Positions 26,299-48,450 are shown, counted from the stretch's first letter. The stretch is 53,360 nucleotides of DNA from Actinomycetota bacterium (GCA_035759705.1 DASTUJ010000193.1:1-53360); one strand, 5' to 3'. Program-made: numbers and translations. The notes: a model not told the origin generated them from the sequence alone.

Positions 26299-27693
26299 AT
26301 GGCGAAGACGACGGCTGGGGATAGGGCTCTGGAGTTGCGCAACCTGCCCCAGGTCGACCGGCTGAGCGGCGCCCTTCCCCGGTCGGTCCCTCCATCGCTG
26401 AGGGTAGCCGCCGCCCGAGCGTCGATCGCGGCAGCCGCCGAATCCATCCTTTCCGGGGAGGCCGCCCCCTCTTTCGACGAGCTGGTCGCTTCGGCGACCG
26501 GACGGCTGGACGCCCAGGGCCGCCGGCGGCTGAGGCCCCTGGTCAACGCCACAGGGGTCCTCCTGCACACCAACCTGGGGCGTGCGCCCCTGGCGGGTGG
26601 AGCGCTCGACGCCGTCCGCGACGTGGCTTCCGGCTACTCCAACCTCGAGTTCAACCTGGAGACGGGGAAACGGGGCACCCGCTACGAGCACTCCGCCGAG
26701 ATGCTGGCGTCCCTGACCGGCGCCGAGTCCGCCCTGGTGGTAAACAACAACGCTGCAGCGGTGCTTCTGGCGCTCTCCGGACTGTCCCGGGGCAAGGAGG
26801 CAATCATCTCCCGCGGAGAGTTGATCGAGATCGGCGGCGAGTTCCGGATTCCCGAGATCATGGCGGAGTCCGGTGCGGTCATGCGGGAGGTGGGAACCAC
26901 CAACCGGACCCACCTGAAGGACTACGTCAACGCAATCACGCCGGAGACCGGGGTCATCCTCAAGGTTCACCCCTCCAACTACGAGGTCACCGGCTTCACC
27001 AAGACCGTGTCCGGGCGGGAGCTGTCCGAGCTGGCGCACTCTCGGGACATCCCCCTCGTCCACGATGTGGGCAGCGGCCTGCTCTCCCGCCACCTGCCGG
27101 GCGGGGTCCCCTCCTGGCTCTCCAGGGAGCCCTCGGTGAACGATGCGGTGGATGACGGCGCCGACATAGTCACGTTCTCCGGCGACAAGCTTCTCGGCGG
27201 CCCCCAGGCCGGAATCCTGGTAGGCAGGTCCGACGCGCTCGCCAAACTCCGCAAGAGCCCCCTCCTGCGGGCGTTCCGCACCGACAAGACCACGCTGGCC
27301 GCCCTGGACGCGACCCTGATGGCGTACCTGTCGGGCGAGGTCGCCCGCATCCCCTTCTGGCGGATGGCTCTTGCCGGCGCGGAGGAGATCGGCGTGCGGG
27401 CTAAGGCCCTGGCCGCCGGGCTGCCCGAAAACCGGGCCCGAGTCGAGGTCGTAAGCGGGTTCTCCACCACCGGCGGCGGCTCGGCCCCCGCCAGCCGGAT
27501 CCCCACCGCCCTGCTTCGGGTCGAGCCGGAGAACGGCGGCGCCCAGGCCCTGGCCGAAGCCCTCCTGGCGCACGACCCCCACGTCGTGGCCCGGATCGAG
27601 GACGGCGGGTTGGTGGTGGATCTGAGAACGGTCGACCCGCCGGACGACCGGGTGGTCGCCTCCGCCCTAAGCAGCGCCTTGAAGGGAACTTAG
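26299..27693 (+). CDS. selA: L-seryl-tRNA(Sec) selenium transferase
   Basis: NATGVLLHTNLGRAPL, NNNAAAVLL, FSGDKLLGGPQAGILVG (PLP lysine context). Confidence 0.92.
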   Translation: MAKTTAGDRALELRNLPQVDRLSGALPRSVPPSLRVAAARASIAAAAESILSGEAAPSFDELVASATGRLDAQGRRRLRPLVNATGVLLHTNLGRAPLAGGALDAVRDVASGYSNLEFNLETGKRGTRYEHSAEMLASLTGAESALVVNNNAAAVLLALSGLSRGKEAIISRGELIEIGGEFRIPEIMAESGAVMREVGTTNRTHLKDYVNAITPETGVILKVHPSNYEVTGFTKTVSGRELSELAHSRDIPLVHDVGSGLLSRHLPGGVPSWLSREPSVNDAVDDGADIVTFSGDKLLGGPQAGILVGRSDALAKLRKSPLLRAFRTDKTTLAALDATLMAYLSGEVARIPFWRMALAGAEEIGVRAKALAAGLPENRARVEVVSGFSTTGGGSAPASRIPTALLRVEPENGGAQALAEALLAHDPHVVARIEDGGLVVDLRTVDPPDDRVVASALSSALKGT

Positions 27694-29522
27694 TGCCCGT
27701 AATCGGCACCGCCGGGCACGTCGACCACGGAAAAAGCACCCTCGTAAACGCCCTGACCGGGATCGACCCCGACCGGCTGGAGGAGGAGAAGCGCCGTGGC
27801 CTGACCATCGACCTCGGGTTTGCGTGGTTCACCACCCCGGCGGGACGGGAGGTCGGCATTGTCGACGTCCCCGGCCACGAGCGGTTCATCAAGAACATGC
27901 TGGCCGGCGCCGGGGCGATCAACCTCAACCTGTTCGTGGTCGCCGCCAACGAGGGGTGGAAGCCGCAGTCGCAGGAGCACCTCGACATCCTCCACACGCT
28001 GGGGATCTCGGCGGCGATCGTCGTGATCACCAAAACCGACACCGTCGACGAGGAGACGCTGGCGGCGGTGCGCGACTCGGTCGCTTCGAAGATCGAGGGC
28101 ACCAGCCTGGCCGGGTCGCCGATCCTGGGGGTCTCTGCGACCACCGGCGAGGGGCTCGGCGAGCTGGTCGCCGCCGTCGACCACCTGCTGGCGACGACCC
28201 CGGAGCCGGCCGACCTCGGAAGGGCGCGGCTGTGGATCGACCGGGTGTTCACGATCAAAGGGTCCGGGACCGTGGTCACCGGGACTCTGAGCGGGGGCTT
28301 TTTGGAGGTCGACCAGCCGGTGGAGGTCCTGCCGGGCGACACCCGGGCCCGGGTGCGCACGATCCAGTCGCACCGGACGCAGTGGACTCGCCTGGGGCCG
28401 GGAAACCGGACCGCGCTGAACCTGGTCGGGGCCGACGCCAAGGCGCTGGGGCGCGGCCACAGCCTCGGGCCGCTGGGGGCCTGGCGGACCACCGACAAGC
28501 TGCTGGCGTCGCTCAGCTTCCTCCCCCACCTGGACCACACTCCCCAGGAGCGGGGGGCGTACAAGTTTCACGTCGGGTCGGTGGAGATCGACGCTACCCT
28601 TCGCTTTCTCCAGGCGCCGGGACAAAACGGGGAGGCCGGGCTGGCCGCGATCCGGCTGGCGAAGCCGACGGTCCTGGACTTCTCCGACCGGTTCATCATC
28701 CGTGACTCCGGCCGGCAGCAGACCGTCGGCGGCGGAGTGGTGCTGGAGGCTCACCCGGGCAAGTTCCGGGGGGACGCCGCAGTCACCGCCGCCCGGGCCC
28801 GCATGCTGGCCGGCAGCCGGCACGACTACGTCCTCGTGCTGCTCGAGGAGTCGGGCTTCCTGCCGCTGGACGAGATATTCGTGAGGACCGGGGTGACACC
28901 CCAGGCCGCCCAGGACCTGCAGATCCTCACCCTGCCCAACTTCGCGGTGTCGCCGGAGGCGTTCGACCGGATTGCGGCCCAGGCGATCTCCCACGTCCGG
29001 GCGTACCAGGCTTCCCACTCGCTCGATCCGGGCCTGCCGCTGACGACCCTGCGAGCTGCGCTGCGCCTCGACCACCGGTTCGTCGACGAGCTGGTGGACG
29101 AGCTGGACCGCCGGAAGCTGGTGGCGGCCGACGGCACGGTCGTGCGCACGCCGGACTTCAAGCCGATGATCCTGGCGCCCGAGCGGGATCAGATCCTCCG
29201 GGAGCTGAACGAGGCCGGCGCCTCTCCCCCGACCGTTGCCTCGCTGTCCCAGGGGTATGGCGCCGACATGGTGCGGGCGCTGGTGCGTTCCGGGGACCTG
29301 GTGCAGGTCAGCCCGGACTTCGTCTACCCAACGGAGTGGGTCGACCGGGTCAAGGAGTCGCTGCGGGCACGGATCGCCGAGGCCGGGCCGTTCACCGTGG
29401 CCGAGTTCCGGGACCTGGTGGGGACCACCCGCAAGTTCGCGGTGCCGTTCCTGGAGTTCCTGGACCGGACCGGCTTCACCACCCGCCAGGGCGACGTCAG
29501 AAAGCTGGGCCCGAAGGCTTAG
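27693..29522 (+). CDS. selB: selenocysteine-specific translation elongation factor
   Basis: GTPase motifs GHVDHGKSTL, DVPGHERF and TKTD. ~600 aa with a C-terminal winged-helix extension. GTG overlaps the selA TAG (TAGTG). Confidence 0.92.
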   Translation: MPVIGTAGHVDHGKSTLVNALTGIDPDRLEEEKRRGLTIDLGFAWFTTPAGREVGIVDVPGHERFIKNMLAGAGAINLNLFVVAANEGWKPQSQEHLDILHTLGISAAIVVITKTDTVDEETLAAVRDSVASKIEGTSLAGSPILGVSATTGEGLGELVAAVDHLLATTPEPADLGRARLWIDRVFTIKGSGTVVTGTLSGGFLEVDQPVEVLPGDTRARVRTIQSHRTQWTRLGPGNRTALNLVGADAKALGRGHSLGPLGAWRTTDKLLASLSFLPHLDHTPQERGAYKFHVGSVEIDATLRFLQAPGQNGEAGLAAIRLAKPTVLDFSDRFIIRDSGRQQTVGGGVVLEAHPGKFRGDAAVTAARARMLAGSRHDYVLVLLEESGFLPLDEIFVRTGVTPQAAQDLQILTLPNFAVSPEAFDRIAAQAISHVRAYQASHSLDPGLPLTTLRAALRLDHRFVDELVDELDRRKLVAADGTVVRTPDFKPMILAPERDQILRELNEAGASPPTVASLSQGYGADMVRALVRSGDLVQVSPDFVYPTEWVDRVKESLRARIAEAGPFTVAEFRDLVGTTRKFAVPFLEFLDRTGFTTRQGDVRKLGPKA

Positions 29523-34878: not shown

Positions 34879-35229
34879 TCAGACCCGGTGGTTGCCCGCC
34901 GACTCCATGGTCGAGTACACGGGGATAACCGCAATGACCCCGCCGATCTCCAGCGCCTTGCGGAGGACGGAATTTGACGGCACGACCAGTAGCAGCCGCT
35001 GCTGGCGGTCCTCCAGGAGCCGCCTCATGTTGAGCAGCGAGCGGATTCCGGCGCTGTCCAGGTAGGTGACGAGTCCTAGGTCGATTGTCAGTCCGTCGTC
35101 GGAGTTGTGCATCGCGCCCAGGGCCGCCTGCTCCAAACCGGCGGCGTTGGACATGTCGACGTCCCCGTCCCAGGTCGCGCTCACCCAGCGGCCGTCCCGG
35201 TGGATCCCGGCCGGTTCGGCGCCGCTCAC
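34879..35229 (-). CDS. anti-sigma-factor antagonist (STAS)
   Basis: DGDVDMSNAAGLEQAAL ... VTYLDSAGIRSLLNM ... LRKALEIGGV. GTG 35229 forms a GTGA overlap with the upstream phosphatase/kinase gene. Confidence 0.8.
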   Translation of the reverse strand: MSGAEPAGIHRDGRWVSATWDGDVDMSNAAGLEQAALGAMHNSDDGLTIDLGLVTYLDSAGIRSLLNMRRLLEDRQQRLLLVVPSNSVLRKALEIGGVIAVIPVYSTMESAGNHRV

Positions 35230-36827
35230 GTCGGAAACCTCAGCCGTGTGCGGAGGGTGACGCACGTTCCGTGCTCGTCGGTCACGAAGTCCACCTCATC
35301 CATAAGCTTGCGCATCAGGGAACGGCCCAGCCCCCGGTTGGTACCCCGCGGCTCCCGCCACGAACCCCGGTCACAGACCGATATCTCCAAAATCGAGTCC
35401 TTGCGGACCGCATCGATTCGGATTGACCCGCCGCCCGGGCCATGGGCATGCTCGATGGAGTTTGAAACCGCCTCCCCTACGGCAACCAGGACGTCCTGGG
35501 TTTGCTGCGGGTCGGCGCCGTTGGCGGCAAGCCACCTGCGAAATGACCGGCGCAGCGGGCCGAGCTCTCTGGGGTCGGCCGCAATCGTGGCGTGAATCTC
35601 CTCCAGGAGGTCGACCCCGGCGAGCCGGACGGCCAGGATCGCAAGGTCGTCGGCAAGAACCGGGGCCCGGTCGTTGAACACGTCCCCCCGGAGAGCGTCG
35701 AGGCTCCTCCAGGGGTGCTCCGACGCTGCCCTGAGTGCTTCCAGACCCTCCTCCAGGGGGCGACCCCGCCGCTCGACCAGGCCGTCGGTGTAGATCAGGA
35801 GCGTGGAGCCCGGCTCCAGCCGGAGCGTTCGCTCCCGGTAGCTCATGAAGTCCACGCCTCCGAGCGGCGGCTCTGCCGGCTCCTCGATGAGGTGAGCCCG
35901 ACCCAGCGAGTCCACGTAGACCGGCGGCAGGTGCCCCGCGTTGGCATACCTCATCGTCCCGTCGGGCTCCAGCAGTCCGACCAGAACCGTGGCCATGACC
36001 CCGGGGTCGAAGTGAAGAAGGAAGTCGTTCAGCTGGGAAACCGTGAGATCCGGTTTGCCGTTGACGAACACCAGCGCCCTCACCGCGTTCCGAAGCCTGC
36101 CCATCGCGATGGCGGCCGGGACTCCCCGGCCGGCTATGTCTCCTACCACCACGCACAAAGACTCGGCGCCCACCACGAAGACATCGAACCAGTCGCCGCC
36201 GACGATTCCTCCCTCGGCGGGCTGGTAGTGCCCGGAGATCTCCACCCCGTGCACCTTCGGGAACCGGTCTGGAAGCAGGCTTCGCTGCAGCGTCTCAGCC
36301 AGCGCGCGCTGGCTGTGTTCACGCCGGATGTGAACCGCCATGGCAACCCGGTCGGCCACGAGCTGCATCAGCTCGACGTCTTCGGTGACGAAGGTCCGGG
36401 GCGTGAGGGTCCCGACGTGCAGGACACCGATCACGTTGCCGTGGACGATGAGCGGAACCCCGAGCATCGACCGGATTCCCTTGGACAACAAAAGCGGGTT
36501 CAGGACCTTGCGGTGATCGACCTCCTCGAGGATGACCGGCCGCCCGGTGGCTGCGATCCGGCCGGCGAACCCGCCCCCCACGGGGAGGCGGACCCCCTGC
36601 TCGACCTCCTCCTCCAACCCTTTGGCCGCCGTCGCCACCAGCTCCTGATTCTGCTCGTCCAGGAGCAGGACTGCCGCGGTGTCTGCGCGGAGGAGGTCGC
36701 GGATGCGGACGAGCAGCTCGTCGAGGAGGGATTCGACCGTGAGGTGCGCCAGTGCGGAGTCGGTGACGCTCTGGAGCCGCCTGAGGTGTTCCTCGGCGAT
36801 GTTGGCTTGGCTCTCGCTGGTCGCCAT
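35226..36827 (-). CDS. GAF - PP2C (SpoIIE/RsbU-type) phosphatase - HATPase_c (RsbW-type) fusion protein
   Basis: GAF region: LLDEQNQELVATAAKG...GFAGRIAATGRPV...MLGVPL. PP2C region: LQRSLLP...GGDWFDV...VVVGDIAGRG...YANAGHLPP...LLIYTDGLVE. Intact kinase-like motifs: GEAVSNSIEHA, VCDRGSW, GLGRSLM. ATG 36827 (MATSES) is preferred over 36938. Confidence 0.85.
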   Translation of the reverse strand: MATSESQANIAEEHLRRLQSVTDSALAHLTVESLLDELLVRIRDLLRADTAAVLLLDEQNQELVATAAKGLEEEVEQGVRLPVGGGFAGRIAATGRPVILEEVDHRKVLNPLLLSKGIRSMLGVPLIVHGNVIGVLHVGTLTPRTFVTEDVELMQLVADRVAMAVHIRREHSQRALAETLQRSLLPDRFPKVHGVEISGHYQPAEGGIVGGDWFDVFVVGAESLCVVVGDIAGRGVPAAIAMGRLRNAVRALVFVNGKPDLTVSQLNDFLLHFDPGVMATVLVGLLEPDGTMRYANAGHLPPVYVDSLGRAHLIEEPAEPPLGGVDFMSYRERTLRLEPGSTLLIYTDGLVERRGRPLEEGLEALRAASEHPWRSLDALRGDVFNDRAPVLADDLAILAVRLAGVDLLEEIHATIAADPRELGPLRRSFRRWLAANGADPQQTQDVLVAVGEAVSNSIEHAHGPGGGSIRIDAVRKDSILEISVCDRGSWREPRGTNRGLGRSLMRKLMDEVDFVTDEHGTCVTLRTRLRFPT

Positions 36828-36874
36828 GGCCCGATGAGGATACTTGGCCTCTTCAGCCGTGTCGAAGCTTAAAG

Positions 36875-37060
36875 ATGACCGGCACCCTTCCGGCCGCCGC
36901 GCGAGCGGCCGGCGGCCGGCTTTGGAAAGACCGGGCAACGGGCGGCTGCGACAACCTGCACGCCGCCCACCTGGCGGAGGACGAACAAGTCCGAAGGCAA
37001 TTGAACCAAGCCGTCTTCGAGGCGATCTACGTCACTCGGGACGGCGTTACCGAGAGTTGA
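36875..37060 (+). pseudogene. C-terminal remnant of a (large serine) recombinase
   Basis: ...GGCDNLHAAHLAEDEQVRRQLNQAVFEAIYVTRDGVTES* resembles the conserved C-terminal ...Y..A.d..RR.lNQA.F..i.v segment of actinobacterial recombinase-family proteins, from memory. Only ~40 homologous codons are present, with no catalytic domain upstream. Lies 187 nt from the 3' end of tRNA-Pro. Confidence 0.45.
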
Positions 37061-37246: not shown

Positions 37247-37323
37247 TGGTCGGGATGGCGGGATTTGAACCCACGACCTCCTCGTCCCGAACGAGGCACG
37301 CTACCAAGCTGCGCTACATCCCG
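37247..37323 (-). tRNA. tRNA-Pro (anticodon CGG), CCA encoded
   Basis: Reverse complement CGGGATGTAGCGCAGCTTGGTAGCGTGCCTCGTTCGGGACGAGGAGGTCGTGGGTTCAAATCCCGCCATCCCGACCA folds as a cloverleaf: 7-bp acceptor, anticodon stem CCTCG/CGAGG with loop TTCGGGA, and T-arm GTGGG-TTCAAAT-CCCGC. Confidence 0.95.
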
Positions 37324-37359: not shown

Positions 37360-37779
37360 TTACCCGGCGGCCTCAACCACCTTGCGAATGGCTGCCGCAA
37401 CCGCCCCGGCGTGTGCCTCGTCGTCGTACCTCTGGCGGGGCCAGAAGAACCCCCTCAAGCCGTCCTTGAACTTGCGGGGGATCACGTGGACGTGCAGGTG
37501 GGGGACGCTCTGGCTCACCTTGTTGTTCACCGCGACGAACGTCCCATCTCCGCCCATCGCCTCCGGCATGGCTGTCGCCAGGCGCCGGGCCGCCGCGAAA
37601 AGCGGGACCAGCAGGTCGTCAGGAAGTTCGGGAAGCGTTTCGATGTGCGCCCTCGGGACCACCAGCGTGTGTCCCGGAAAAACCGGCCTGCTGTCCAGGA
37701 ACGCCAGGGTGTGTTCGTCCTCCCAGACCACGTGTGCCGGGATGGACCCGTCCAGGATGCCGCAGAAGATGCAGCTCAA
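37360..37779 (-). CDS. HIT (histidine triad) family protein
   Basis: CIFCGILDGSIPAHVVWEDEHTLAFLD ... SVPHLHVHVIPR (HxHxHxx). TTG 37779 forms a TTGA overlap with the asd stop. The rest of the 398-aa track ORF is an asd shadow. Confidence 0.85.
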   Translation of the reverse strand: MSCIFCGILDGSIPAHVVWEDEHTLAFLDSRPVFPGHTLVVPRAHIETLPELPDDLLVPLFAAARRLATAMPEAMGGDGTFVAVNNKVSQSVPHLHVHVIPRKFKDGLRGFFWPRQRYDDEAHAGAVAAAIRKVVEAAG

Positions 37780-38804: not shown

Positions 38805-38855
38805 GGGATCTAGGTTAACCGCAACCAGGCGGCCCCGGCCATTGGGCCGCTACGG

Positions 38856-41800
38856 CTACGGCTCGTCTCCGTCGCCCGAGTCGCCGCTGTCGCCCGAGTT
38901 CCCGGTGCCGCCGGTTCCGCCGCCGTCACCCGATCCTCCCGAATTCCCGCCGCTTCCGGCGTTGCCCGAGTCGCCGCTACCCGCCGGACCTCCGTTGCCG
39001 CTGCCGCCGCTGCCCGACCGGGCCGGGGCGCCGTTACCGGCGCTGCAGCCGCCCTTGCAGCCGCCTCCGCCGCCGCCTCCGCCGGAGCCTCCGCCGCCGC
39101 TCCCGCGGCCCGTCGTCGCCCCCGAGTAACGCCCGCTGCCGCCGGCCGTGCCGCCGGGACCGCCTGCGCCGCCCTGTCCGCCGCCGTCTCCGCCTGCCCC
39201 CCCGACCGCAGGCCCGGCGTCCCCGCCGTTGCCGCTGCCGCCGGTGGCGTCACCGGTAGGTGCGCTGTCGCCGCCGTCACCTGCGTCTCCCGAGTCGCCG
39301 CCGTCGCCTGCATTGCCGGAGTCGCCGGTATCCCCGGCGTCCCCGGTTGTCTGGCTTCCGGCCTGCTCGTTCAGCTGCTCGACGATCCCCGGGAACAACT
39401 GAATAAGGCACACGGCCGTCCCGCCGCCAATCGCGCCTACCGAATTTCCGCAAACGTTGATCGGGAACTGAAGCACAGAACCCGCCAGGTTGTTGAAGAT
39501 CGTCCGGATCGATATGCCGCCGGCGCCGCCTGCGTTTCCGGTGCGCCCTGAGCTGCCGCCGTCCCCGGCCGCGCCGGATTCGCCGCCGTCCCCTGCGCTG
39601 CCGGAGTTGCCGCTAGACGCACCGCCTCCGTTTCCGGTGCCGCCGTCGCCCGAGGTGGCCCGGCCGCCGTTGCCGGCGTTGCAGCCGCCGTCACAGGAGC
39701 CCGTTCCCCCGCTACCGCCGCTACCGCCCCCGCCGTTCCCGCTGCCCAGGGTGGCGCCTGCAAAGGCTCCGCTGCCTCCCGCCGCTCCGCCTTCACCTCC
39801 GTCTCCGCCGTTACCGCCGCCGTTGCCGCCTGCTCCACCTCTGGCCGGCCCCCCGTTGCCGCCGTCCCCGCTTCCTCCGGTTGCGCTACCGGTGCGGCCG
39901 CTGGTCCCGCCGTCGCCGCCGGTCCCCGAGTCGCCGCCGTCACCTGCTGCGCCCGACTCTCCGCTGTCGCCGCCGTCTCCGGCGGTGATCCCCGCTATTG
40001 TCGAGGCGACCTGCGGAGCGAACTCCAACAGCGCCGTCACTGCACAGATAGCTTCGCTCGCTACCCCCGGGCCGTCGGCGTTTCCGATTCCGTTGCCGCA
40101 GACGTTGAGGGCCACCTGGGTCACATCCCCGATAAAGCTCGAGCTGGAGAGGATGTCGACTAAGCCGCCGTCACCACCCTCGCCGGTGCGCCCGGAGCTC
40201 CCTCCGTCTCCGGCCCTTCCGGAGTCCCCGCCATCGCCGGCGTTGCCGGAGTTCCCGCTGTCCGCCGGCCCTCCGTTGCCGGATCCCCCCGAGCCCGAGT
40301 CGGCCGGGCCGCCGTGACCGGCGTTGCAGCCGCCCTCACAAGAACCCGCTCCTCCGGAGCCGCCGCTTCCGCCTCCGCCGTCCCCGCTGCCAAGGGTCGC
40401 TCCGGCGTAGTCGCCGCTTCCTCCGGCAAATCCTCCGGCGCCGCCGTCGCCGCCCCGGCCGCCGCCGTTACCGCCGCCGCCTCCGGTTGCCGTGCCCCCG
40501 TTCCCGCCGTTCCCGCTGCCGCCGGTTGCATTCCCGGTGCGGCCGCTGTCGCCCCCGTCGCCCGCCGCGCCCGAGTCCCCTCCGTCGCCTCCCGGGCCGG
40601 AGTCGCCGCTGTCGCCTCCGTCACCCGTGGACACCGAATCGATGAGCGTGGTGAGCTGGGGAGCGAAGTTGATGATGGCCTCGGCGATGCAGGATTCGGC
40701 AATCCCAACGCCCGGGTTGACGTTGCTCACGCCGTTTCCGCAGATGTTCACCGCCGCCTGGAGGACATCGCCCACGAAGTTGGCCTGCGACCTGATGCGA
40801 GCGTCTCCCCCGTCGCCTGCGTCCCCTGTAGCTCCCGAGTTGCCTCCGTCGCCGGCGGCGCCCGACTCGCCGCCATCACCGGCGTTGCCCGAGCTGCCGC
40901 TGGACGCCGAGCCTCCGTCTCCGTTCCCGCCACCGCCCGAGGTCGCCCGGCCGCCGTTCCCGGCATTGCAGCCGCCCTCGCAGGAACCCGGGCCGCCTAC
41001 TCCTCCGTTTCCGCCACCGCCGTCGCCGCTGCCCAGCGTGGCGCCGGTAAAGTCGCCGCTACCCCCGGCCCCACCCCCTGCACCGCCGCTGCCGCCGGTT
41101 CCCCCTCCGTCGCCGCCGGAGCCCCCGTTAGCGGAGCCGCCGTTGCCGCCCCGGCCGCGGCCTCCGGTTGCGTTGCCGGTACGGCCGCTGTCGCCGCCGT
41201 CTCCGCCCGCGCCGGAATTGCCGCCGTCCCCGGCTGCGCCCGACTCACCGCTGTCGCCACCGTCGCCGGTAGAGAGAGAGCCGACCAGCGTCGCGATCTG
41301 GGGTGCGAAGTTGAAGACGGTGCGCGCGATGCACTCGTTGGCGGTGCCGCTGGCCGGAGCGTCGTCTGTCCCGATGGCGTTGCCGCAGACATTTGCCGAT
41401 ACCTGGACCAGGTCTCCGAGACGCTCGGCCGTCGCCCGCAGGCTGAAGTCCCCGCCGTCACCGCCGTCACCGGTGCTCCCGACCCTGCCCGCGTCCCCGG
41501 CGTCGCCGGATTCCCCGGCCCGGCCCGATGCCCCCGAGCTGCCGGTGGATGCGTTGCCCCCATCTCCCGACCCGCCGGGACCGCCGCTCGCCGGGCCTCC
41601 TGTGCCGGCGCGGCAGCCGCCCTCACACGAACCGGGTCCCCCGGCGCCGCCGTCTCCGCCGCCGCCCGAGCCGCTGCCGAGGGTCGCTCCCGCAAAATCG
41701 CCTTCGCCGCCTGCGGGGCCTCCGTTTCCTCCACCGCCCCCGGTTCCACCCCCGTCTCCCCCGTCGCCGCCTGTGGCCGACCCGGCGTCCCCGCCGTCTC

Positions 41801-42143
41801 CCCGGCCGGCCGAAGCGTCGCCTATTCGCCCGGTGCGGCCGGCGTCGCCGCCGGGTCCGGAATCGCCCGCCAGGCCCGCTGCCCCGAGCTCACCGGAGTC
41901 ACCTCCGCCACCGAGGTCGGCCGAGCCGCCGCTAATGATCGATGTGCCCACCTCGAAGATGGCTTCGGTGAAACAATTCGCAAACGCCGTTCCCGTCCCC
42001 AGGACGTTTCCGCAGATGTTGATGCTGATCTGGGCGTCGACCGCGTTGGCCGAAGTAGGAATCGCAAGGCCGGCCAGCAGGACGCCGGTGATGAGGATCG
42101 ACTTCAGCGCTGCCGAAACTCTTGGCGGCCTGCCTGAGTTCAT
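38856..42143 (-). CDS. secreted glycine-rich repeat protein with five chaplin-like (N[IV]CGN...C) motifs
   Basis: 1095-aa ORF. GGGGAG before the ATG. Sec signal ...LAGLAIPTSANA/VDAQ. Five ~210-aa modules (details in findings). The only frame with a signal peptide and a single uninterrupted reading across the whole repeat. Confidence 0.75.
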   Translation of the reverse strand: MNSGRPPRVSAALKSILITGVLLAGLAIPTSANAVDAQISINICGNVLGTGTAFANCFTEAIFEVGTSIISGGSADLGGGGDSGELGAAGLAGDSGPGGDAGRTGRIGDASAGRGDGGDAGSATGGDGGDGGGTGGGGGNGGPAGGEGDFAGATLGSGSGGGGDGGAGGPGSCEGGCRAGTGGPASGGPGGSGDGGNASTGSSGASGRAGESGDAGDAGRVGSTGDGGDGGDFSLRATAERLGDLVQVSANVCGNAIGTDDAPASGTANECIARTVFNFAPQIATLVGSLSTGDGGDSGESGAAGDGGNSGAGGDGGDSGRTGNATGGRGRGGNGGSANGGSGGDGGGTGGSGGAGGGAGGSGDFTGATLGSGDGGGGNGGVGGPGSCEGGCNAGNGGRATSGGGGNGDGGSASSGSSGNAGDGGESGAAGDGGNSGATGDAGDGGDARIRSQANFVGDVLQAAVNICGNGVSNVNPGVGIAESCIAEAIINFAPQLTTLIDSVSTGDGGDSGDSGPGGDGGDSGAAGDGGDSGRTGNATGGSGNGGNGGTATGGGGGNGGGRGGDGGAGGFAGGSGDYAGATLGSGDGGGGSGGSGGAGSCEGGCNAGHGGPADSGSGGSGNGGPADSGNSGNAGDGGDSGRAGDGGSSGRTGEGGDGGLVDILSSSSFIGDVTQVALNVCGNGIGNADGPGVASEAICAVTALLEFAPQVASTIAGITAGDGGDSGESGAAGDGGDSGTGGDGGTSGRTGSATGGSGDGGNGGPARGGAGGNGGGNGGDGGEGGAAGGSGAFAGATLGSGNGGGGSGGSGGTGSCDGGCNAGNGGRATSGDGGTGNGGGASSGNSGSAGDGGESGAAGDGGSSGRTGNAGGAGGISIRTIFNNLAGSVLQFPINVCGNSVGAIGGGTAVCLIQLFPGIVEQLNEQAGSQTTGDAGDTGDSGNAGDGGDSGDAGDGGDSAPTGDATGGSGNGGDAGPAVGGAGGDGGGQGGAGGPGGTAGGSGRYSGATTGRGSGGGGSGGGGGGGGCKGGCSAGNGAPARSGSGGSGNGGPAGSGDSGNAGSGGNSGGSGDGGGTGGTGNSGDSGDSGDGDEP
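38860..42040. repeat. five imperfect tandem coding modules of ~627-648 bp
   Basis: The Cys codon of the CGN motif recurs at 42014, 41387, 40742, 40100 and 39452 on the minus strand. Long GGN-rich stretches are near-identical between modules. Confidence 0.8.
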
Positions 42144-42250
42144 GTGCTCCCCAATGTCCTCAACTCCGGGCGCCCGGCTTAGGACCGGGGGGCACTATTA
42201 AGTCACTGCGGGGCGAGGCTTCGCAACCCCCAAGCCGGCGGGACGACTCT

Positions 42251-43495
42251 CTAAGCCTGGCCCACCGCGGACATCGAAGGCTTACCCTCCAGGCCGAACC
42301 GGTCGTGAATGAGGGTCACCGCCCGGTTGATTTCTACCGACCGCACCACACACGAGATTCGGATCGAGGAGGTGGAGATCATCTCGATGTTGATGCCGGC
42401 CTCCGCCAGGGCGGCGAACATCTCCGCCGCCACCCCCGGGTCGGTCTTCATGCCGGCCCCGATGAGCGAGAGCTTGGCGATGTCGGAGTCGGCCGAGAAG
42501 CCCTCGGCGCCGATGTCGGCCACGATCCGCCGGATTGCGTCGCCCGACCGGATCAGGTCCTCCTTGGGCATGGTGAAGGTCAGGTCCGTCTTTCCTTCGT
42601 GGGAGATGTTCTGCACGATCATGTCGACGTTGATCCGCTCCTTGGCGATGTCGCTGAAGATGCGTGCGGCAATGCCCGGCCGGTCGGGGACCCCGTCGAC
42701 CCGGATCATCGCCTCGGAAGTGTCCTGCGCCACCGCAGTGACAAGAGCCTTTTCCACCTGTTCAACCTCCTCTTTGACCACGGTGCCGGACTCATCGGTA
42801 AACGACGACCGGCAGTGGATCACCACGCCGTGGGTGCGGGCAAACTCAACAGAACGCAGCGCAAGCACGCCGGCGCCGGACGCCGCCATCTCGAGCATCT
42901 CGTCGTAGGTCACCGCGTTCAGCTTGCGGGCCTTCGGCACGATGCGGGGGTCGGCGGAGAACACGCCCGCCACGTCGGTGTAGATCTCGCACACCTCGGC
43001 GCCGAGGGCCGCCGCCAGAGCAACTGCAGTGGTGTCGGACCCGCCCCGGCCCAGCGTGGTGACGTCCTTGTCGGACGAAACGCCCTGGAAGCCGGCGACG
43101 ATGACGATCTGACCTGCTGACAGCGCGGCTTCGATCCGGTGCGCCTTGACCTCGACGATGCGGGCCTTGGTGTGGGAGGTGTCGGTCATGATGCCGGCCT
43201 GGCTGCCGGTGAAGCTGATGGCGTCGTGGCCCATCTCGTTCAGGGCCATCGCCAGCAGAGCCATCGAGATCCGCTCCCCGGCGCTCAGCAGCATGTCCAT
43301 CTCCCGGGCGTGCGGCACCTCGGAGATCTCGTGAGCCAGCTTGACCAGGTCGTCGGTGGCCTTGCCCATGGCGGACACGACGACGACCATGGAGTTGCCC
43401 GCAGCGGCGCACCGGGCGATGCGCTCGGCGACCACCTTGATCCGCTCCACGCCGGCGACTGAGGTTCCGCCGTACTTCTGAACGACTATGCCCAC
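42251..43495 (-). CDS. ask: aspartate kinase
   Basis: [40 protein letters not shown], and two C-terminal ACT domains. Confidence 0.95.
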
Positions 43496-44475: not shown

Positions 44476-46599
44476 TTAAGGGTCCTCGACAACGACTGTT
44501 CCCTTGAACGCTCTGCGGATCAGCTCGATGGCATCCTCCGGCGGCTCGGTCCCGTCCGAGTCCGACGGCCCTCCCGCATCGTCCGGCGGCGTTCCTGCCG
44601 GGTCCGACGCCGGATTCTGCGCCGCCGGCTCCGCGCCGATCACACAGTTCAGCCTGGGGGTTACCCCCAAAATCTCCTTGAAAGCCTCCAGGAGCGGTCC
44701 GTTCTGGGTCTGGTCCGCAACCTTGTCCCGGTGGAAGCGGGAACGGGGGCCGAACTCCAGCACCAGCTCGCCGTTTCTCCAGGCGACCGGCTCGGCCGGG
44801 AGGAGCACCGCGTGGAACGAGATCTTGCGCCGCTTCACCTTATCCCTGATTAGCGGCCAGGCCCGGACAATTGTCTCGAGGTCCAGCTCACCGGCCGGGA
44901 CCGGAGTCCTCGCGCCCGCGGCGGGGGAAGGGGAGGCGGCGGTTTCGGGGGCCGGGGAGGGGGCGTTATCTGCGACCGGGGCCGGGGAGGCCGGTGGCAG
45001 CGGGGCAGGGGCGGCCGGGCGGGAGGGTGCGGCAGGCGGTTGGGTCTGGACGGCCGGCGGCGGGGGTGCTGCGGCCGAAGGCGGTGAGGTGGCCGGAGCC
45101 GCAGCGTGCCGGGGAGCGGTGGCCGCCGGCTCTGGGTAGGGGGCTTTGGCGGGCGGAGTGGGTGGTTTCGCGGCTGCCGCGGGCCGCGCCGGGGCGTCGT
45201 CCGATCCCCACAACCAGCCTGCCCCGATCTCGGGCGGGGCGTCGGATTCTGCGGCCTCCGGAACCGAAGGTGGGGGGGCCGGGGCGCTCGGCCCTGCGGC
45301 CGGGGCCGCCCCAGGGGGCTCGGGCGCTGCAGGGGGTTTCGCCGCAACCGGGGGACGAACAGCAACCGCGGCCCGCGCCGGCTCGGGGCGAGGGGCCCGG
45401 CCCTCGGGGGGCGCCATCCGGGGCATCGGCATCGACGCGGCACCCATCGGGGCGTCTCCCTGGTTTCGTTCCAGCCTTTCCAGCCGCGCCAGCAGCGATG
45501 CCGGGGTCGCGTGCAGGTCGGGCCGGGTCATCCGTGCCAGGCCGACCTCGAGAGCAAGCCGGCCCTCCACCGCCTGGCGGAGCTGCAGGCCGATCTCGTT
45601 GGTCAGGTCGATCAGGCGGAGCACCTCGGCGCTTCCCAGGTGGTTGGCCTGTTCCTGCAGGCGGGTGAGCCCGTCGTCGGTGACCTCGAGGATCTCCCGG
45701 GCCGCCGGGGCGTGCAGGACCAGGAACAGCGACCGCAGGTGGTCGGTCAGCGCCCGGGAGAACTCCCGGATGTCCACACCAGAGCGGATCAGGCGCTCGG
45801 CAAAGACAAATACTGCGCCGATGTCCCGCTCCGAGATCAGGTCGATGGCTTCGAACAGGACCTCGTCGGGCATCCGGCCGAGCAGTTGGGCCAGGTCCCC
45901 CACCGCTACGGTGTCGCCGGCGAAGGCCCGCAATTGGTCGAGCAGGCTGAGAGCGTCCCGCATCGACCCGCCGGCCCGGCTGCTGATCAACGTCAGGGTC
46001 TCGGGGTCGGCGTTGATGGCCTCCAGCTCGCAGATCTGCGACAGCCGGCCGGCGGTGTCCAGGCTGTTGATCGACCGGAACTCGTAACGCTGACAGCGGT
46101 CGAGGACCGTCTGCAGGACCTTGTGCGGCTCGGTGGTGGCGAATACGAACACCACGTGGCTCGGGGGCTCCTCCAGGACCTTCAGCAGGGCGTTGTTGGC
46201 CGCCGGCGAGAGCATGTGGCACTCGTCGATGATGTACACCTTCCAGCGCCCGGCGTAGGAGGCGTACGCCACCTTCTCCCGCAGGTCCCGGGCGTCGTCA
46301 ACCGAGCCGTGGGACGCAGCGTCGATCTCCACCACGTCGAGCGACGACCCCGAGGTGATCGACAGGCAGGAGGAGCACTCGCCGCACGGCTCGTCGCCGT
46401 CCCGCTCGCAGTTGAGGGCTTTGGCCAGGATGCGGGCCGTGGAGGTCTTGCCGGTCCCCCGGGGGCCGCTGAACAGCAGGGCGTGCGCCAGGCGGTCCTG
46501 CTTGATTGCGGTCTGCAGCGTCTGGGTGACGTGCTGCTGGCCCACGACTTCGCCGAAGTTCTGGGGACGGTACTTCCGATAAAGAGAGAGGTGGGCCAT
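44476..46599 (-). CDS. dnaX: DNA polymerase III subunit gamma/tau
   Basis: YRPQNFGEVVGQ, GPRGTGKTS, zinc module CGECSSC, IIDECHML, and a long Pro/Ala-rich linker before the C-terminal tau domain. Confidence 0.93.
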   Translation of the reverse strand: MAHLSLYRKYRPQNFGEVVGQQHVTQTLQTAIKQDRLAHALLFSGPRGTGKTSTARILAKALNCERDGDEPCGECSSCLSITSGSSLDVVEIDAASHGSVDDARDLREKVAYASYAGRWKVYIIDECHMLSPAANNALLKVLEEPPSHVVFVFATTEPHKVLQTVLDRCQRYEFRSINSLDTAGRLSQICELEAINADPETLTLISSRAGGSMRDALSLLDQLRAFAGDTVAVGDLAQLLGRMPDEVLFEAIDLISERDIGAVFVFAERLIRSGVDIREFSRALTDHLRSLFLVLHAPAAREILEVTDDGLTRLQEQANHLGSAEVLRLIDLTNEIGLQLRQAVEGRLALEVGLARMTRPDLHATPASLLARLERLERNQGDAPMGAASMPMPRMAPPEGRAPRPEPARAAVAVRPPVAAKPPAAPEPPGAAPAAGPSAPAPPPSVPEAAESDAPPEIGAGWLWGSDDAPARPAAAAKPPTPPAKAPYPEPAATAPRHAAAPATSPPSAAAPPPPAVQTQPPAAPSRPAAPAPLPPASPAPVADNAPSPAPETAASPSPAAGARTPVPAGELDLETIVRAWPLIRDKVKRRKISFHAVLLPAEPVAWRNGELVLEFGPRSRFHRDKVADQTQNGPLLEAFKEILGVTPRLNCVIGAEPAAQNPASDPAGTPPDDAGGPSDSDGTEPPEDAIELIRRAFKGTVVVEDP

Positions 46600-46699
46600 T
46601 GGGTAACCCAGGATACCGTGCCCGGGTGACGCGCCTCAGAGGGAATCTGAGGGGAATTAAGTGTCGCGCACCCACCTTCGACTCTAGGCCCCGGGCGTA

Positions 46700-46820
46700 T
46701 CCGCGGCAGCCAGCTCGGGCCAGGTGACCCCGCGGCGCAGTGCCTTGAAGCTTAAGGCTGCTTCGTTCCCGACCTGACCTGGTTCACCCCGGTCACTCGC
46801 GCGGGACCCAGCCGTCAACA
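46700..46820 (-). ncRNA. ffs: signal recognition particle RNA (small bacterial type); ends approximate
   Basis: Minus strand reads GTGAACCAGGTCAGGTCG-GGAA-CGAAGCAGCC (plus coordinates 46756-46787). This is the conserved SRP domain IV with a GGAA tetraloop (compare E. coli 4.5S ACCAGGUCAGGUCCGGAAGGAAGCAGCC). The position upstream of dnaX is common in bacteria. Confidence 0.75.
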
Positions 46821-46995
46821 CCGCTTACCGGGACCGTCCCCGAGAGCTTTCGAGCCTAGGGTGGGAATTCAGCCTCCCATAAGGCGGATTTGGAGTTACA
46901 GGCAACCGCCGACTGCCCACCTAGCGCGACTTAACCAGTCTAACCGTTGGGCCGGCTTGGGGCGGACGGCTGCCGTAAGACTGTGCCGATCCGTA

Positions 46996-48347: not shown

Positions 48348-48361
48348 AGAGGCCGATTTTG

Positions 48362-48450
48362 CGGAGGCGGCGAGATTTGAACTCGCGATGGGGTTGCCCC
48401 CAAACCAGCATTCCAAGCTGGCGCCATAGGCCGGTCTAGGCGACGCCTCC
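48362..48450 (-). tRNA. tRNA-Ser (anticodon GGA), long variable arm, CCA not encoded
   Basis: Reverse complement GGAGGCGTCGCCTAGACCGGCCTATGGCGCCAGCTTGGAATGCTGGTTTGGGGGCAACCCCATCGCGAGTTCAAATCTCGCCGCCTCCG. Acceptor GGAGGCG/CGCCTCC, anticodon stem CCAGC/GCTGG with loop TTGGAAT, variable stem GGGG/CCCC, T-arm GCGAG-TTCAAAT-CTCGC. Confidence 0.93.

What the first reader, a model, noticed from the sequence alone, without database searches (positions are those of the whole stretch)
38856..42143. Five-module poly-chaplin, glycine-rich secreted protein wedged between ask and asd
Seen: one 1095-codon minus-strand ORF with a textbook Sec signal (AIPTSANA/VDAQ). It has five copies of [IV]N[IV]CGN-x(10-15)-C, with Cys pairs at aa 44/57, 253/271, 468/485, 682/700 and 898/912, spaced 209-216 aa apart. 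For example, SVLQFPINVCGNSVGAIGGGTAVC. Each motif is followed by about 170 aa of Gly/Asp/Ser/Asn-rich sequence with a 9-residue register (GDGGESGAA GDGGNSGAT GDAGDGGDA). GAAGDGGNS recurs exactly 14 units later. Each tract also holds one invariant C-[EDK]-G-G-C motif. All 20 Cys of the mature protein lie in these two motifs. There is no LPXTG or C-terminal TM; the protein ends GDSGDSGDGDEP. Established knowledge: ...Q.P..VPVNVCGN......G..N...GN.C is the core of the chaplin (ChpA-C/DUF320) domain of Streptomyces surface amyloids. Known chaplins carry one or two such domains. Gly/Asp nonapeptide periodicity is the hallmark of RTX and PGRS-type beta-rolls. ask and asd are normally adjacent or operonic in Actinobacteria, but here 3.3 kb of repeat gene separates them in the same orientation. 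Inference: this is a previously undescribed surface-fibre architecture, with chaplin-like disulfide caps alternating with beta-roll-like Gly/Asp spacers. It is embedded in, and possibly co-transcribed with, a core amino-acid and cell-wall precursor operon.
Basis: partly seen in the sequence, partly recalled or inferred. Interest (0 to 1): 0.78.

Follow-up and report, generated by a model that had tools for sequence, protein, structure and literature searches.

The report
Orphan five-module secreted glycine-rich protein
A real gene for a large, secreted, very acidic glycine-rich protein built from five old repeats, each starting with a distant chaplin-like cysteine loop, was inserted ready-made between two normally adjacent amino-acid biosynthesis genes in one uncultured actinobacterial species; its function is unknown.

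Summary
ORF 38856-42143(-) encodes 1095 aa with a Shine-Dalgarno site and a Sec-type signal peptide. It has five ~215-aa modules and 20 Cys at exactly the stated positions. It is a real gene: only this frame is open, dN/dS between modules is 0.21-0.39, and six independent metagenome contigs match at >=99.5% identity.

- **Chaplin link:** all five heads resemble the C-terminal half of true chaplin domains (hhalign 95.6%; 17-22 bits each, best shuffle 13.7). Pfam PF03777 is below threshold, with one head at 17.7 bits against a cutoff of 21. Only one of three GN motifs is kept.
- **Beta-roll spacer:** not supported. The RTX motif occurs 0 times. The dominant period is 3, as G-[acidic]-[tiny] triplets. 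This fits polyproline-II or polyglycine-II-type helices better than beta structure.
- **Structure:** AlphaFold2 failed (pLDDT 30-34), so no fold is shown.
- **Insertion:** eight contigs from relatives (Asd 86-89% and 66% identical) have ask directly next to asd. Module dS (0.9-1.4) exceeds the dS to the nearest relatives (0.5-0.8), so the gene arrived pre-formed.
- **Homologues:** none with the full module was found.

Function is inferred only: a surface or matrix structural protein.

The parts
38856..42143 (-). CDS of the 1095-aa five-module secreted Gly-rich protein (mature ~1061 aa, ~90 kDa, 107 D+E vs 28 K+R)
   Evidence: It is the only stop-free frame of six. dN/dS between modules is 0.21-0.39. 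The same 1095-codon gene is present in independent contig L081 with 14 nt differences.
42042..42143 (-). Sec-type signal peptide, aa 1-34 (MNSGRPPRVSAALKSILITGVLLAGLAIPTSANA|VD): basic n-region, 14-residue hydrophobic core, A-N-A cleavage motif. No lipobox Cys and no twin-Arg.
   Evidence: Read from the translation. Hydropathy exceeds 1.6 at aa 18-26 and only marginally (1.61) at aa 911-912 in head 5. No signal-peptide predictor was available, so this rests on inspection.
42144..42250 (-). 107-nt gap between the ask stop and the ORF start. GGGGAG Shine-Dalgarno lies 5 nt before the ATG, and there is an AT-rich island (ACTTAATAGT). No U-tract terminator.
41928..42038 (-). Head 1 (aa 36-72), a truncated chaplin-like Cys loop, C44/C57
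   Evidence: 17.4 bits against a profile of true chaplin domains; best of 2000 shuffles was 13.7
41271..41447 (-). Head 2 (aa 233-291), C253/C271
   Evidence: 17.7 bits against the chaplin-domain profile; hhalign of the heads against chaplins
40629..40802 (-). Head 3 (aa 448-505), C468/C485
   Evidence: 19.4 bits
39984..40160 (-). Head 4 (aa 662-720), C682/C700
   Evidence: 17.7 bits
39348..39512 (-). Head 5 (aa 878-932), C898/C912. This is the only head with a direct Pfam PF03777 hit, and that hit is sub-threshold.
   Evidence: PF03777 E=0.0033, 17.7 bits, cutoff 21; 21.8 bits against the chaplin-domain profile
41605..41690 (-). Module 1 invariant core G-A-T-x-G-x-G-x14-C-x-G-G-C-x-A-G. The same core lies at 40960-41045, 40318-40403, 39673-39758 and 39037-39122 in modules 2-5.
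   Evidence: The degenerate DNA pattern hits exactly these five sites and nothing else in the window; 0 expected by chance
41175..41267 (-). Example of a long (G-x-x)11 run (aa 293-323, module 2). Each module has two such runs, one after the head and one at its end.
   Evidence: Run list. Position-specific composition: X1 is 53% D/E, X2 is 97% G/S/A/T, and Pro is 2 of 198. The internal 115-nt duplication is family D2.
38817..38863 (-). Strong hairpin overlapping the stop codon, without a U-tract. It is followed by the conserved asd leader TAACCTAGATCCC-ATG.
   Evidence: dG -33.9 kcal/mol, z = -2.1. The leader is conserved in L087 and L088.
42251..43495 (-). ask (aspartokinase), the upstream neighbour
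   Evidence: Pfam AA_kinase + ACT on the identical gene in L081
37776..38804 (-). asd (aspartate-semialdehyde dehydrogenase), the downstream neighbour
   Evidence: Pfam Semialdhyde_dh and Semialdhyde_dhC

Best explanation
SHOWN. This is a genuine protein-coding gene under purifying selection. It encodes a Sec-type exported, unanchored, strongly acidic protein of about 90 kDa. The protein consists of five anciently duplicated modules. Each module has two parts:
- A hydrophobic head of about 55 aa. Its core, Q-x3-N-[VI]-C-G-N-x(10-15)-C, is related to the C-terminal, disulfide-bearing half of the chaplin domain.
- A tract of about 155 aa that is not random low complexity. It has two runs of 11 strict G-[Asp/polar]-[Gly/Ser/Ala/Thr] triplets. 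These flank a GGx core with the invariant G-A-T-x-G-x-G and C-x-G-G-C motifs.

The gene is present in only one species-level lineage of an uncultured Actinomycetota group. There it sits between ask and asd, which are contiguous in all sampled relatives. The modules are older than the split from those relatives, so the gene arrived already assembled.

INFERRED (mechanism). After export, each head closes a chaplin-like disulfide loop and provides hydrophobic self-association surfaces. The triplet tracts adopt extended three-residues-per-turn (polyproline-II or polyglycine-II type) helices, possibly packed into bundles pinned by the C-x-G-G-C loop. This would present one glycine face, one small-residue face and one aspartate-lined face able to bind Ca2+/Mg2+ or mineral and water surfaces. 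The whole protein would be a beads-on-a-rod building block of a cell-surface or extracellular matrix layer.

Expression is probably by read-through from ask and/or from its own promoter in the 107-nt gap. asd depends on transcription crossing the gene.
For: **Real gene.**
- It is the only open frame of six.
- A GGGGAG Shine-Dalgarno site lies 5 nt upstream of the ATG.
- Gly, Ala and Asp codon usage resembles the neighbouring genes.
- dN/dS between modules is 0.21-0.39 with near-saturated dS.
- L081-L086 come from six different samples, are colinear and are >=99.5% identical. The polymorphism density of the gene equals that of its flanks.

**Chaplin relation.**
- The only non-collagen hits of the module profile in 1.84 billion representatives are P0003 and P0021. 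They match the head positions.
- Both are true PF03777 proteins with 5 and 4 domains.
- hhalign of the heads against those domains gives 95.6% probability over 31 columns that include both Cys.
- Each head scores 17.4-21.8 bits; the best shuffle scores 13.7.

**Structured tract.**
- Period 3 dominates.
- X1 is 53% acidic; X2 is 0% acidic and 97% tiny.
- The tract is more conserved than the heads: pN 0.18 against 0.46.
- Invariant motifs sit at fixed spacing in all five modules.
- Gly-rich PPII helical bundles with Gly every third residue, sometimes disulfide-stabilised, are an established fold class: snow flea antifreeze protein (sfAFP), Obg, phage S16 gp38 and acetophenone carboxylase (PMC8409303).

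**Insertion.**
- ask and asd are 10-39 nt apart in L087-L094.
- The asd leader is conserved downstream of the insert.
- dS between modules is 0.92-1.4. dS to the 86-89% relatives is 0.49-0.77.
Against: - **No fold evidence.** AlphaFold2 gave pLDDT 33.8 for one module with a 5-sequence alignment, and 30.4 for the full mature protein. That outcome is also what a disordered protein would give.
- **No similarity to a PPII-bundle structure.** BLASTP to sfAFP gives E=84. The PDB search found only weak collagen-like matches.
- **Chaplin similarity is motif-level.** It covers about 31 residues, is below the Pfam gathering score, and keeps one of three GN motifs.
- **No supporting context.** No partner genes (short chaplins, rodlins, sortase) lie in the window.
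- **No expression or protein data.**
- **Databases are incomplete for this protein.** The protein collections do not contain even the L081 copy, so 'no homologues' is weaker than it looks.
- **Alignment caveat.** dS in repetitive Gly codons may be inflated by alignment ambiguity.
Confidence: 0.5

Rival explanations
1. The Gly/Asp tracts are intrinsically disordered, polyanionic spacers (entropic bristles or a hydrogel-forming matrix). Only the five heads fold or interact. The triplet pattern would be a by-product of repeat expansion of a 9- or 27-nt unit.
For: AlphaFold2 pLDDT is 23-31 over every tract. There is no Pfam or PDB match. The composition is extreme, with 38% Gly and a net charge of about -79. 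27-nt sub-repeats exist.
Against: The tracts are more conserved between modules than the heads (pN 0.18 against 0.46) even though synonymous sites are near saturation. Invariant G-A-T-x-G-x-G-x14-C-x-G-G-C occurs at fixed spacing in all five modules. Position-specific residue classes are strict. Disordered spacers normally conserve composition, not register or cysteines.
Confidence: 0.25
2. One reading: true chaplin domains capping RTX/PGRS-type Ca2+-binding beta-rolls built from nonapeptides.
For: The tracts are Asp- and Gly-rich and have local 9-aa (27-nt) repeats. Head 5 gives a weak PF03777 hit.
Against: GG.G.D.[hydrophobic]. occurs 0 times. GG.G.D occurs 8 times against 4.9 expected. PF00353 gives no hit, even on isolated tracts, and PGRS scores 7.3 bits against a cutoff of 27. 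The runs have no hydrophobic position for a beta-roll core. Period 3 rather than 2 or 9 dominates.
Confidence: 0.08
3. The (G-x-x)11 runs form collagen-like triple helices in a trimer, as in bacterial collagen-like proteins or phage fibres. The heads would be the interruptions or trimerisation knobs.
For: Most database hits of the module profile are collagen-like G-X-Y proteins. Weak matches exist to collagen peptides in the PDB and to PF01391 (13.4 bits). Gly is strictly every third residue for 31-34 aa in nine of the ten long runs and 25 aa in the tenth.
Against: Pro is only 2 of 198 X/Y positions, and Gly itself fills 34 of them. Established collagen biophysics says both features destabilise a triple helix. 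PF01391 is far below its cutoff of 27.2 bits. The register breaks after each run, and the central part is GGx rather than GXY.
Confidence: 0.07
4. It is not a functional gene. The alternatives are an assembly artefact, a GC-rich non-coding repeat, or an antisense Pro-rich frame that is the one actually expressed.
For: The long antisense ORFs are the expected mirror of GGN codons. GC3 cannot separate the sense frame from the in-register antisense frame.
Against: Every antisense frame carries 3-29 stops (5 in the Pro-rich frame), while the sense frame has none. Signal peptide, SD and conserved Cys are seen only in the sense frame. Six independent assemblies agree. Modules are only 57-70% identical at the DNA level, so collapse or expansion is unlikely.
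Confidence: 0.02

Closest known systems
Chaplins (ChpA-H of Streptomyces; Pfam PF03777 / DUF320), including uncharacterised multi-domain chaplins such as P0003 (5 domains) and P0021 (4 domains)
   Same: Both are Sec-exported actinobacterial proteins. They share the core Q-x3-N-[VI]-C-G-N...C with two Cys 13-18 residues apart (17-18 in heads 2-4, against 18 in P0003). The domain is hydrophobic and occurs as tandem repeats. Profile-profile probability is 95.6%.
   Different: The N-terminal half of the chaplin domain (G-[VI]-L-S/N-G-N-Q...P.Q.P) is missing. Only the central GN of three GN motifs is kept. The hits are below the Pfam gathering score. Each head is followed by a 155-aa acidic Gly-rich tract that no chaplin has. 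There is no sortase signal. The protein is overall hydrophilic and polyanionic rather than hydrophobic (definitions from PMC13251363 and PMC5618241).
Glycine-rich polyproline-II / polyglycine-II helical bundle proteins (snow flea antifreeze protein, Obg N-domain, phage S16 gp38 adhesin, acetophenone carboxylase)
   Same: Gly at every third residue, small residues at a second position, almost no Pro, and cysteines within Gly-rich segments (PMC8409303).
   Different: There is no detectable sequence similarity and no fold could be predicted. The runs are 11 triplets long, against about 3 per helix in sfAFP. One face is Asp-rich, not Ala-rich. The resemblance is a hypothesis about how the tract works, not a family membership.
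Bacterial and phage collagen-like proteins (Pfam PF01391)
   Same: Uninterrupted G-X-Y triplet runs. They are the commonest database hits of the module profile.
   Different: The runs are Pro-poor and Gly occupies X/Y positions. The score is sub-threshold (13.4 bits against 27.2). The runs are interrupted by a GGx core and Cys motifs.
RTX repeats (PF00353) and mycobacterial PE_PGRS (PF21526)
   Same: Gly/Asp-rich, acidic, and plausibly cation-binding.
   Different: No RTX nonapeptide, no hydrophobic core position, no PE domain, and no family hits.
Actinobacterial ask-asd (lysC-asd) operon
   Same: The window has the same dnaX-ybaB-recR-ask-asd-HIT order as its relatives. The operon was described in Corynebacterium (Follettie et al. 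1993, listed in the references of PMC2897130).
   Different: Here a 3.3-kb unrelated secreted-protein gene plus 107- and 51-nt gaps separate the two genes.

Membership tests
Chaplin domain (PF03777 / DUF320) | Match to the Pfam model at or above the gathering score (21 bits) | tested here: not met
   The whole protein gives 0 hits. With isolated heads, only head 5 hits, at 17.7 bits and E=0.0033; heads 1-4 give nothing.
Chaplin domain (PF03777 / DUF320) | Two conserved Cys that can form the intramolecular disulfide, flanking the C-G-N turn | tested here: met
   Cys pairs are 13, 18, 17, 18 and 14 residues apart in the five heads. Both Cys align to the chaplin Cys in hhalign. Disulfide formation itself was not testable.
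Chaplin domain (PF03777 / DUF320) | [quoted passage not shown] | tested here: not met
   Only the central C-G-N is invariant. G-D lies 11 residues upstream in heads 2-4. The third GN is absent.
Chaplin domain (PF03777 / DUF320) | Significant profile-level similarity to bona fide chaplin domains | tested here: met
   hhalign gives 95.6% over 31 columns. P0003 scores E=3e-10 in the search of 1.84 billion proteins. Each head scores 17.4-21.8 bits against a shuffle maximum of 13.7.
Chaplin domain (PF03777 / DUF320) | Assembly into amyloid fibrils or a surface-active film | not testable with these tools
   Needs recombinant protein (thioflavin-T, EM, X-ray fibre diffraction).
Long chaplins (ChpA-C type) | C-terminal sortase sorting signal (LAxTG + TM) | tested here: not met
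   There is no L[PA]xTG and no C-terminal hydrophobic segment.
RTX beta-roll (PF00353) | Tandem nonapeptides GGxGxDxUx with a hydrophobic position 8 | tested here: not met
   The full motif occurs 0 times. GG.G.D occurs 8 times against 4.9 expected. There is no Pfam hit.
PE_PGRS | N-terminal PE domain plus PGRS repeats (PF21526) | tested here: not met
   There is no PE hit. PGRS scores 7.3 bits against a cutoff of 27.
Collagen triple-helix repeat (PF01391) | Long G-X-Y runs rich in Pro or charged pairs, with a Pfam match | tested here: not met
   Gly periodicity is met, with 10 long runs of 9-12 triplets, mostly 11. However, Pro is 2 of 198 and Gly is frequent at X/Y. PF01391 scores 13.4 bits against 27.2.
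Gly-rich PPII helical bundle fold | Gly every third residue with small residues allowing close helix packing | tested here: met
   Lag-3 autocorrelation is 0.33. X2 is 97% G/S/A/T.
Gly-rich PPII helical bundle fold | A three-dimensional bundle of PPII helices, or similarity to a solved member | tested here: inconclusive
   AlphaFold2 pLDDT was 33.8 and 30.4, so the models are unusable and no fold search was run. There is no PDB sequence match. BLASTP to sfAFP gives E=84.
ask-asd operon member | Co-transcription with ask and asd | not testable with these tools
   No U-tract terminator lies in either gap. A hairpin follows the stop codon. RNA data are needed.

The most novel reading that the evidence does not exclude
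The ~155-aa tract is a new, autonomously folding extracellular domain built from unusually long polyglycine-II/PPII helices pinned by a C-x-G-G-C loop. It alternates with chaplin-derived amyloid-forming heads. That would make the protein the first secreted bacterial beads-on-a-rod fibre that combines a PPII-bundle fold with chaplin-type assembly, with an aspartate face that organises Ca2+, mineral or water at the cell surface.
Probability: 0.15. Interest if true: 0.75.

Novelty: new variant of a known kind. Interest (0 to 1): 0.5.

Why it matters
- **Chaplin reach.** If the heads are functional chaplin derivatives, the chaplin Cys-loop would extend to an uncultured, probably non-streptomycete Actinomycetota lineage. 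It would also appear in a hydrophilic, polyanionic architecture, which is the opposite of the hydrophobic sheath role known so far.
- **A test case for structure prediction.** The conserved triplet tract is a candidate for a rare fold class (Gly-rich PPII bundles) that prediction and secondary-structure tools overlook. This protein is a concrete case where AlphaFold2 returns nothing even though there is clear purifying selection.
- **Operon insertion.** A large foreign gene placed cleanly inside a conserved essential-pathway gene pair is a natural example of how operons tolerate insertions.

The practical importance is limited for now. It is a single-lineage orphan with no functional data.

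Tried and rejected
- **Pfam and NCBIfam, whole protein and isolated tracts:** no family found.
- **Protein homology searches:** the whole protein and the head alignment against 5.8 billion proteins returned nothing. Neither the window protein nor the L081 copy is in that collection. A local hmmsearch shows that HMMER's filters would not have hidden them, since the protein scores 1223 bits against the module profile. The negative result is therefore only partly informative.
- **Module profile against 1.84 billion representatives:** 24 hits, mostly collagen-like, with P0003 and P0021 confirmed as true chaplins.
- **Genome-collection scan with Asd:** It was replaced by the Asd protein search plus contig look-ups.
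- **Metagenome scans:** a DNA pattern scan for the invariant module core gave 0 hits. The search for related loci with the module alignment gave 600 pattern matches with none confirmed.
- **AlphaFold2, twice:** pLDDT was 33.8 and 30.4, so no fold search was run.
- **PDB sequence search and comparison with sfAFP:** nothing significant.
- **Flanking repeats or a mobile-element scar around the insert:** none found, only internal repeats.
- **Promoter and terminator scan:** no promoter-like sites, and none of the three terminator-like sites lies in either intergenic gap.
- **Other copies of the motifs:** none in the window and none in 1.38 Mb of fetched loci.
- **Sample metadata through the literature:** nothing found.

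Full report

Yes. The minus-strand ORF 38856-42143 encodes 1095 aa.
They form five head pairs and five C-[EDK]-G-G-C motifs, with module spacing of 209-216 aa.
- The quoted strings, the GAAGDGGNS recurrence at 302 and 428, and the C-terminus all check out. There is no LPxTG motif and no second transmembrane-strength segment.
- The five modules align over 223 columns at 52-62% identity to module 1.

Two corrections are needed. The literal [IV]N[IV]CGN pattern fits three heads, and the invariant core is Q-x3-N-[VI]-C-G-N. The 9-residue register is local: it appears as 27-nt repeat pairs (family D3). It sits on a dominant 3-residue Gly period, with autocorrelation 0.33 at lag 3 against 0.15 at lag 9.

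**2. Is it a gene?**

Yes, on several lines of evidence.
- It is the only stop-free frame of six. The antisense Pro-rich frame has five stops.
- A GGGGAG Shine-Dalgarno site lies 5 nt upstream of the ATG.
- The N-terminus reads as a Sec-type signal peptide ending A-N-A (inspection; hydropathy).
- Codon choice for Gly, Ala and Asp resembles the neighbouring genes.
- Between modules, dN/dS is 0.21-0.39 with dS 0.92-1.4. DNA identity is only 57-70%, so the repeats are old, selected at the protein level, and unlikely to collapse in assembly.
- Six contigs from six samples (five SRA runs assembled by Logan and one JGI metagenome) are colinear with the window at >=99.5% identity. L081 carries the complete 1095-codon gene with 14 nt and 8 aa differences.
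- Polymorphism density in the gene equals that of its flanks.

**3. The heads and chaplins.**

Pfam finds nothing in the whole protein. With isolated heads, only head 5 hits PF03777, at 17.7 bits against a gathering score of 21. NCBIfam finds nothing.

The module profile was searched against 1.84 billion representative proteins and gave only 24 hits. Most are collagen-like G-X-Y proteins. Two, P0003 and P0021, match the head positions. Both are true PF03777 proteins, with five and four chaplin domains.

Profile-profile comparison of the five heads with those nine domains gives 95.6% probability over 31 columns that include both cysteines. Against a profile of those domains, every head scores 17.4-21.8 bits. 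The best of 2000 composition-matched shuffles scores 13.7.

By the published definition, a chaplin domain is hydrophobic and has three GN motifs 12-13 residues apart plus two Cys (PMC13251363). The heads keep the two Cys and the central GN only. They are therefore best described as divergent relatives of the C-terminal half of the chaplin domain, not as Pfam-level members. It does not hold for sequence space, as P0003 and P0021 show.

**4. The Gly-rich tracts.**

The RTX reading fails.
- The nonapeptide with its hydrophobic position occurs 0 times, and GG.G.D is at chance level.
- PF00353 never hits. PGRS scores 7.3 bits and Collagen 13.4 bits, both far below threshold.

The tract instead has a fixed internal plan, repeated in every module.
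- A run of 11 G-x-x triplets follows the head.
- A GGx core follows, with invariant G-A-T-x-G-x-G-x14-C-x-G-G-C-x-A-G. A degenerate DNA pattern for this core hits exactly the five modules.
- A second 11-triplet run closes the module.
- The two long runs are an internal 115-nt duplication (family D2).
- Within the runs, position 2 is 53% Asp/Glu. Position 3 is 97% Gly/Ser/Ala/Thr and never acidic. Pro is 2 of 198.
- The tracts are more conserved between modules than the heads, with pN 0.18 against 0.46.

A period of three with one Gly face, one small face and one acidic face is what a three-residue-per-turn helix would produce. Gly-rich PPII helical bundles are a known but rare fold class: snow flea antifreeze protein (sfAFP), Obg, phage S16 gp38 and acetophenone carboxylase (PMC8409303).

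This remains an inference. AlphaFold2 failed on one module with the five-module alignment (pLDDT 33.8) and on the mature protein (30.4). There is no PDB sequence match. A disordered polyanionic spacer is the main rival.

**5. Genomic context.**

The window carries dnaX-ybaB-recR-ask-[ORF]-asd-HIT on the minus strand.

Asd homologues at 86-89% identity were located on contigs L087, L088 and L091-L094. Homologues at 66% identity are on L089 and L090. The named records (P0027/L088 and P0050/L089) are labelled Actinomycetota bacterium MAGs. Every one has the same gene order, with ask and asd 10-39 nt apart.

The asd leader TAACCTAGA(T/A)(C/G)CC-ATG of L087 and L088 is retained in the window just downstream of the insert.

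dS between the window and the 86-89% relatives is 0.49-0.77 for asd, ask and recR. That is lower than the dS between modules. The five-module gene therefore pre-dates the species split and was inserted, or translocated, ready-made. The outgroup pair L089 and L090 also lacks it, which favours one gain over several losses.

No flanking repeats or mobile-element genes were seen. No U-tract terminator lies in either gap. A strong hairpin without a U-tract overlaps the stop codon (dG -33.9, z -2.1). In the relatives asd has no room for its own promoter. In the window, asd expression therefore probably depends on transcription through or from within the inserted gene. This is an inference and was not tested.

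**6. Homologues elsewhere.**

None with the module architecture was found.
- Protein searches.
- JGI metagenome DNA.
- The window itself and 1.38 Mb of fetched loci.

One caveat applies. The protein collections lack even the L081 copy, although HMMER's filters would not have hidden it (1223 bits locally). Absence from protein databases is therefore weak evidence.

**7. Verdict.**

This is a real, lineage-restricted, secreted, polyanionic five-module protein. Its heads are chaplin-related, and its triplet tract is conserved and structurally unassigned. The gene was inserted pre-formed into the ask-asd pair.

The chaplin link and the insertion hold. The beta-roll model does not.

Function (surface or matrix structural protein, cation binding, PPII-type rods) is inferred only. 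I rate it a new variant of a known kind, with moderate interest (0.5).

Noticed in passing
P0003 (locus L095:2079-3392, JGI metagenome 3300063262) and P0021: These are true PF03777 proteins with five and four tandem chaplin domains (147.8 and 132.4 bits) and no obvious sortase signal. Such multi-domain 'poly-chaplins' do not appear in the chaplin literature consulted, which describes one or two domains.
   Followed up: partly
window 38856-42143, DNA repeat families D2 and D3: Each 640-nt module contains an internal duplication of a ~115-nt unit, which corresponds to the two (G-x-x)11 runs. Inside those runs there is a 27-nt sub-repeat. This implies a hierarchical 27 -> 115 -> 640 nt history of the gene.
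   Followed up: partly
window 38817-38863 (-): A strong GC hairpin (dG -33.9 kcal/mol, z -2.1) overlaps the stop codon of the repeat gene, has no U-tract, and lies immediately before the conserved asd leader. It could be an attenuator or a processing site that sets asd expression.
   Followed up: no
window 46664-46929 (-), 48361-48450 (-), 37247-37323 (-): A large bacterial SRP RNA (169 bits) lies directly upstream of dnaX. tRNA-Ser(gga) and tRNA-Pro(cgg) are nearby.
   Followed up: no
window 27693-29522 (+): This is a SelB selenocysteine-specific elongation factor (GTP_EFTU + SelB wing domains), so the organism probably makes selenoproteins.
   Followed up: no
window 35226-36938 (-); L087:9573-11258: A GAF-SpoIIE(PP2C)-HATPase_c_2 fusion protein lies next to the locus in the window and also in relative L087. 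In L087 it is followed by a STAS protein, which suggests a partner-switching regulatory module.
   Followed up: no
window 44476-46599 (-), especially 45000-45499: dnaX carries a ~250-aa Pro/Ala-rich linker, with local GC of 0.79. In relative L087 dnaX is called as two genes (514 + 194 aa), which could be a frameshift or a sequencing error.
   Followed up: no
window 37360-37779 (-): A HIT-family gene overlaps the asd stop by 4 nt. This arrangement is also seen in L092, while other relatives have a short gap. It suggests translational coupling downstream of asd.
   Followed up: no
protein collections: Neither the window protein nor the 99%-identical L081 gene product is present in the 15-billion-protein collection, even though the gene is called on the Logan contig. 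Extremely Gly-rich proteins may be under-represented there.
   Followed up: partly
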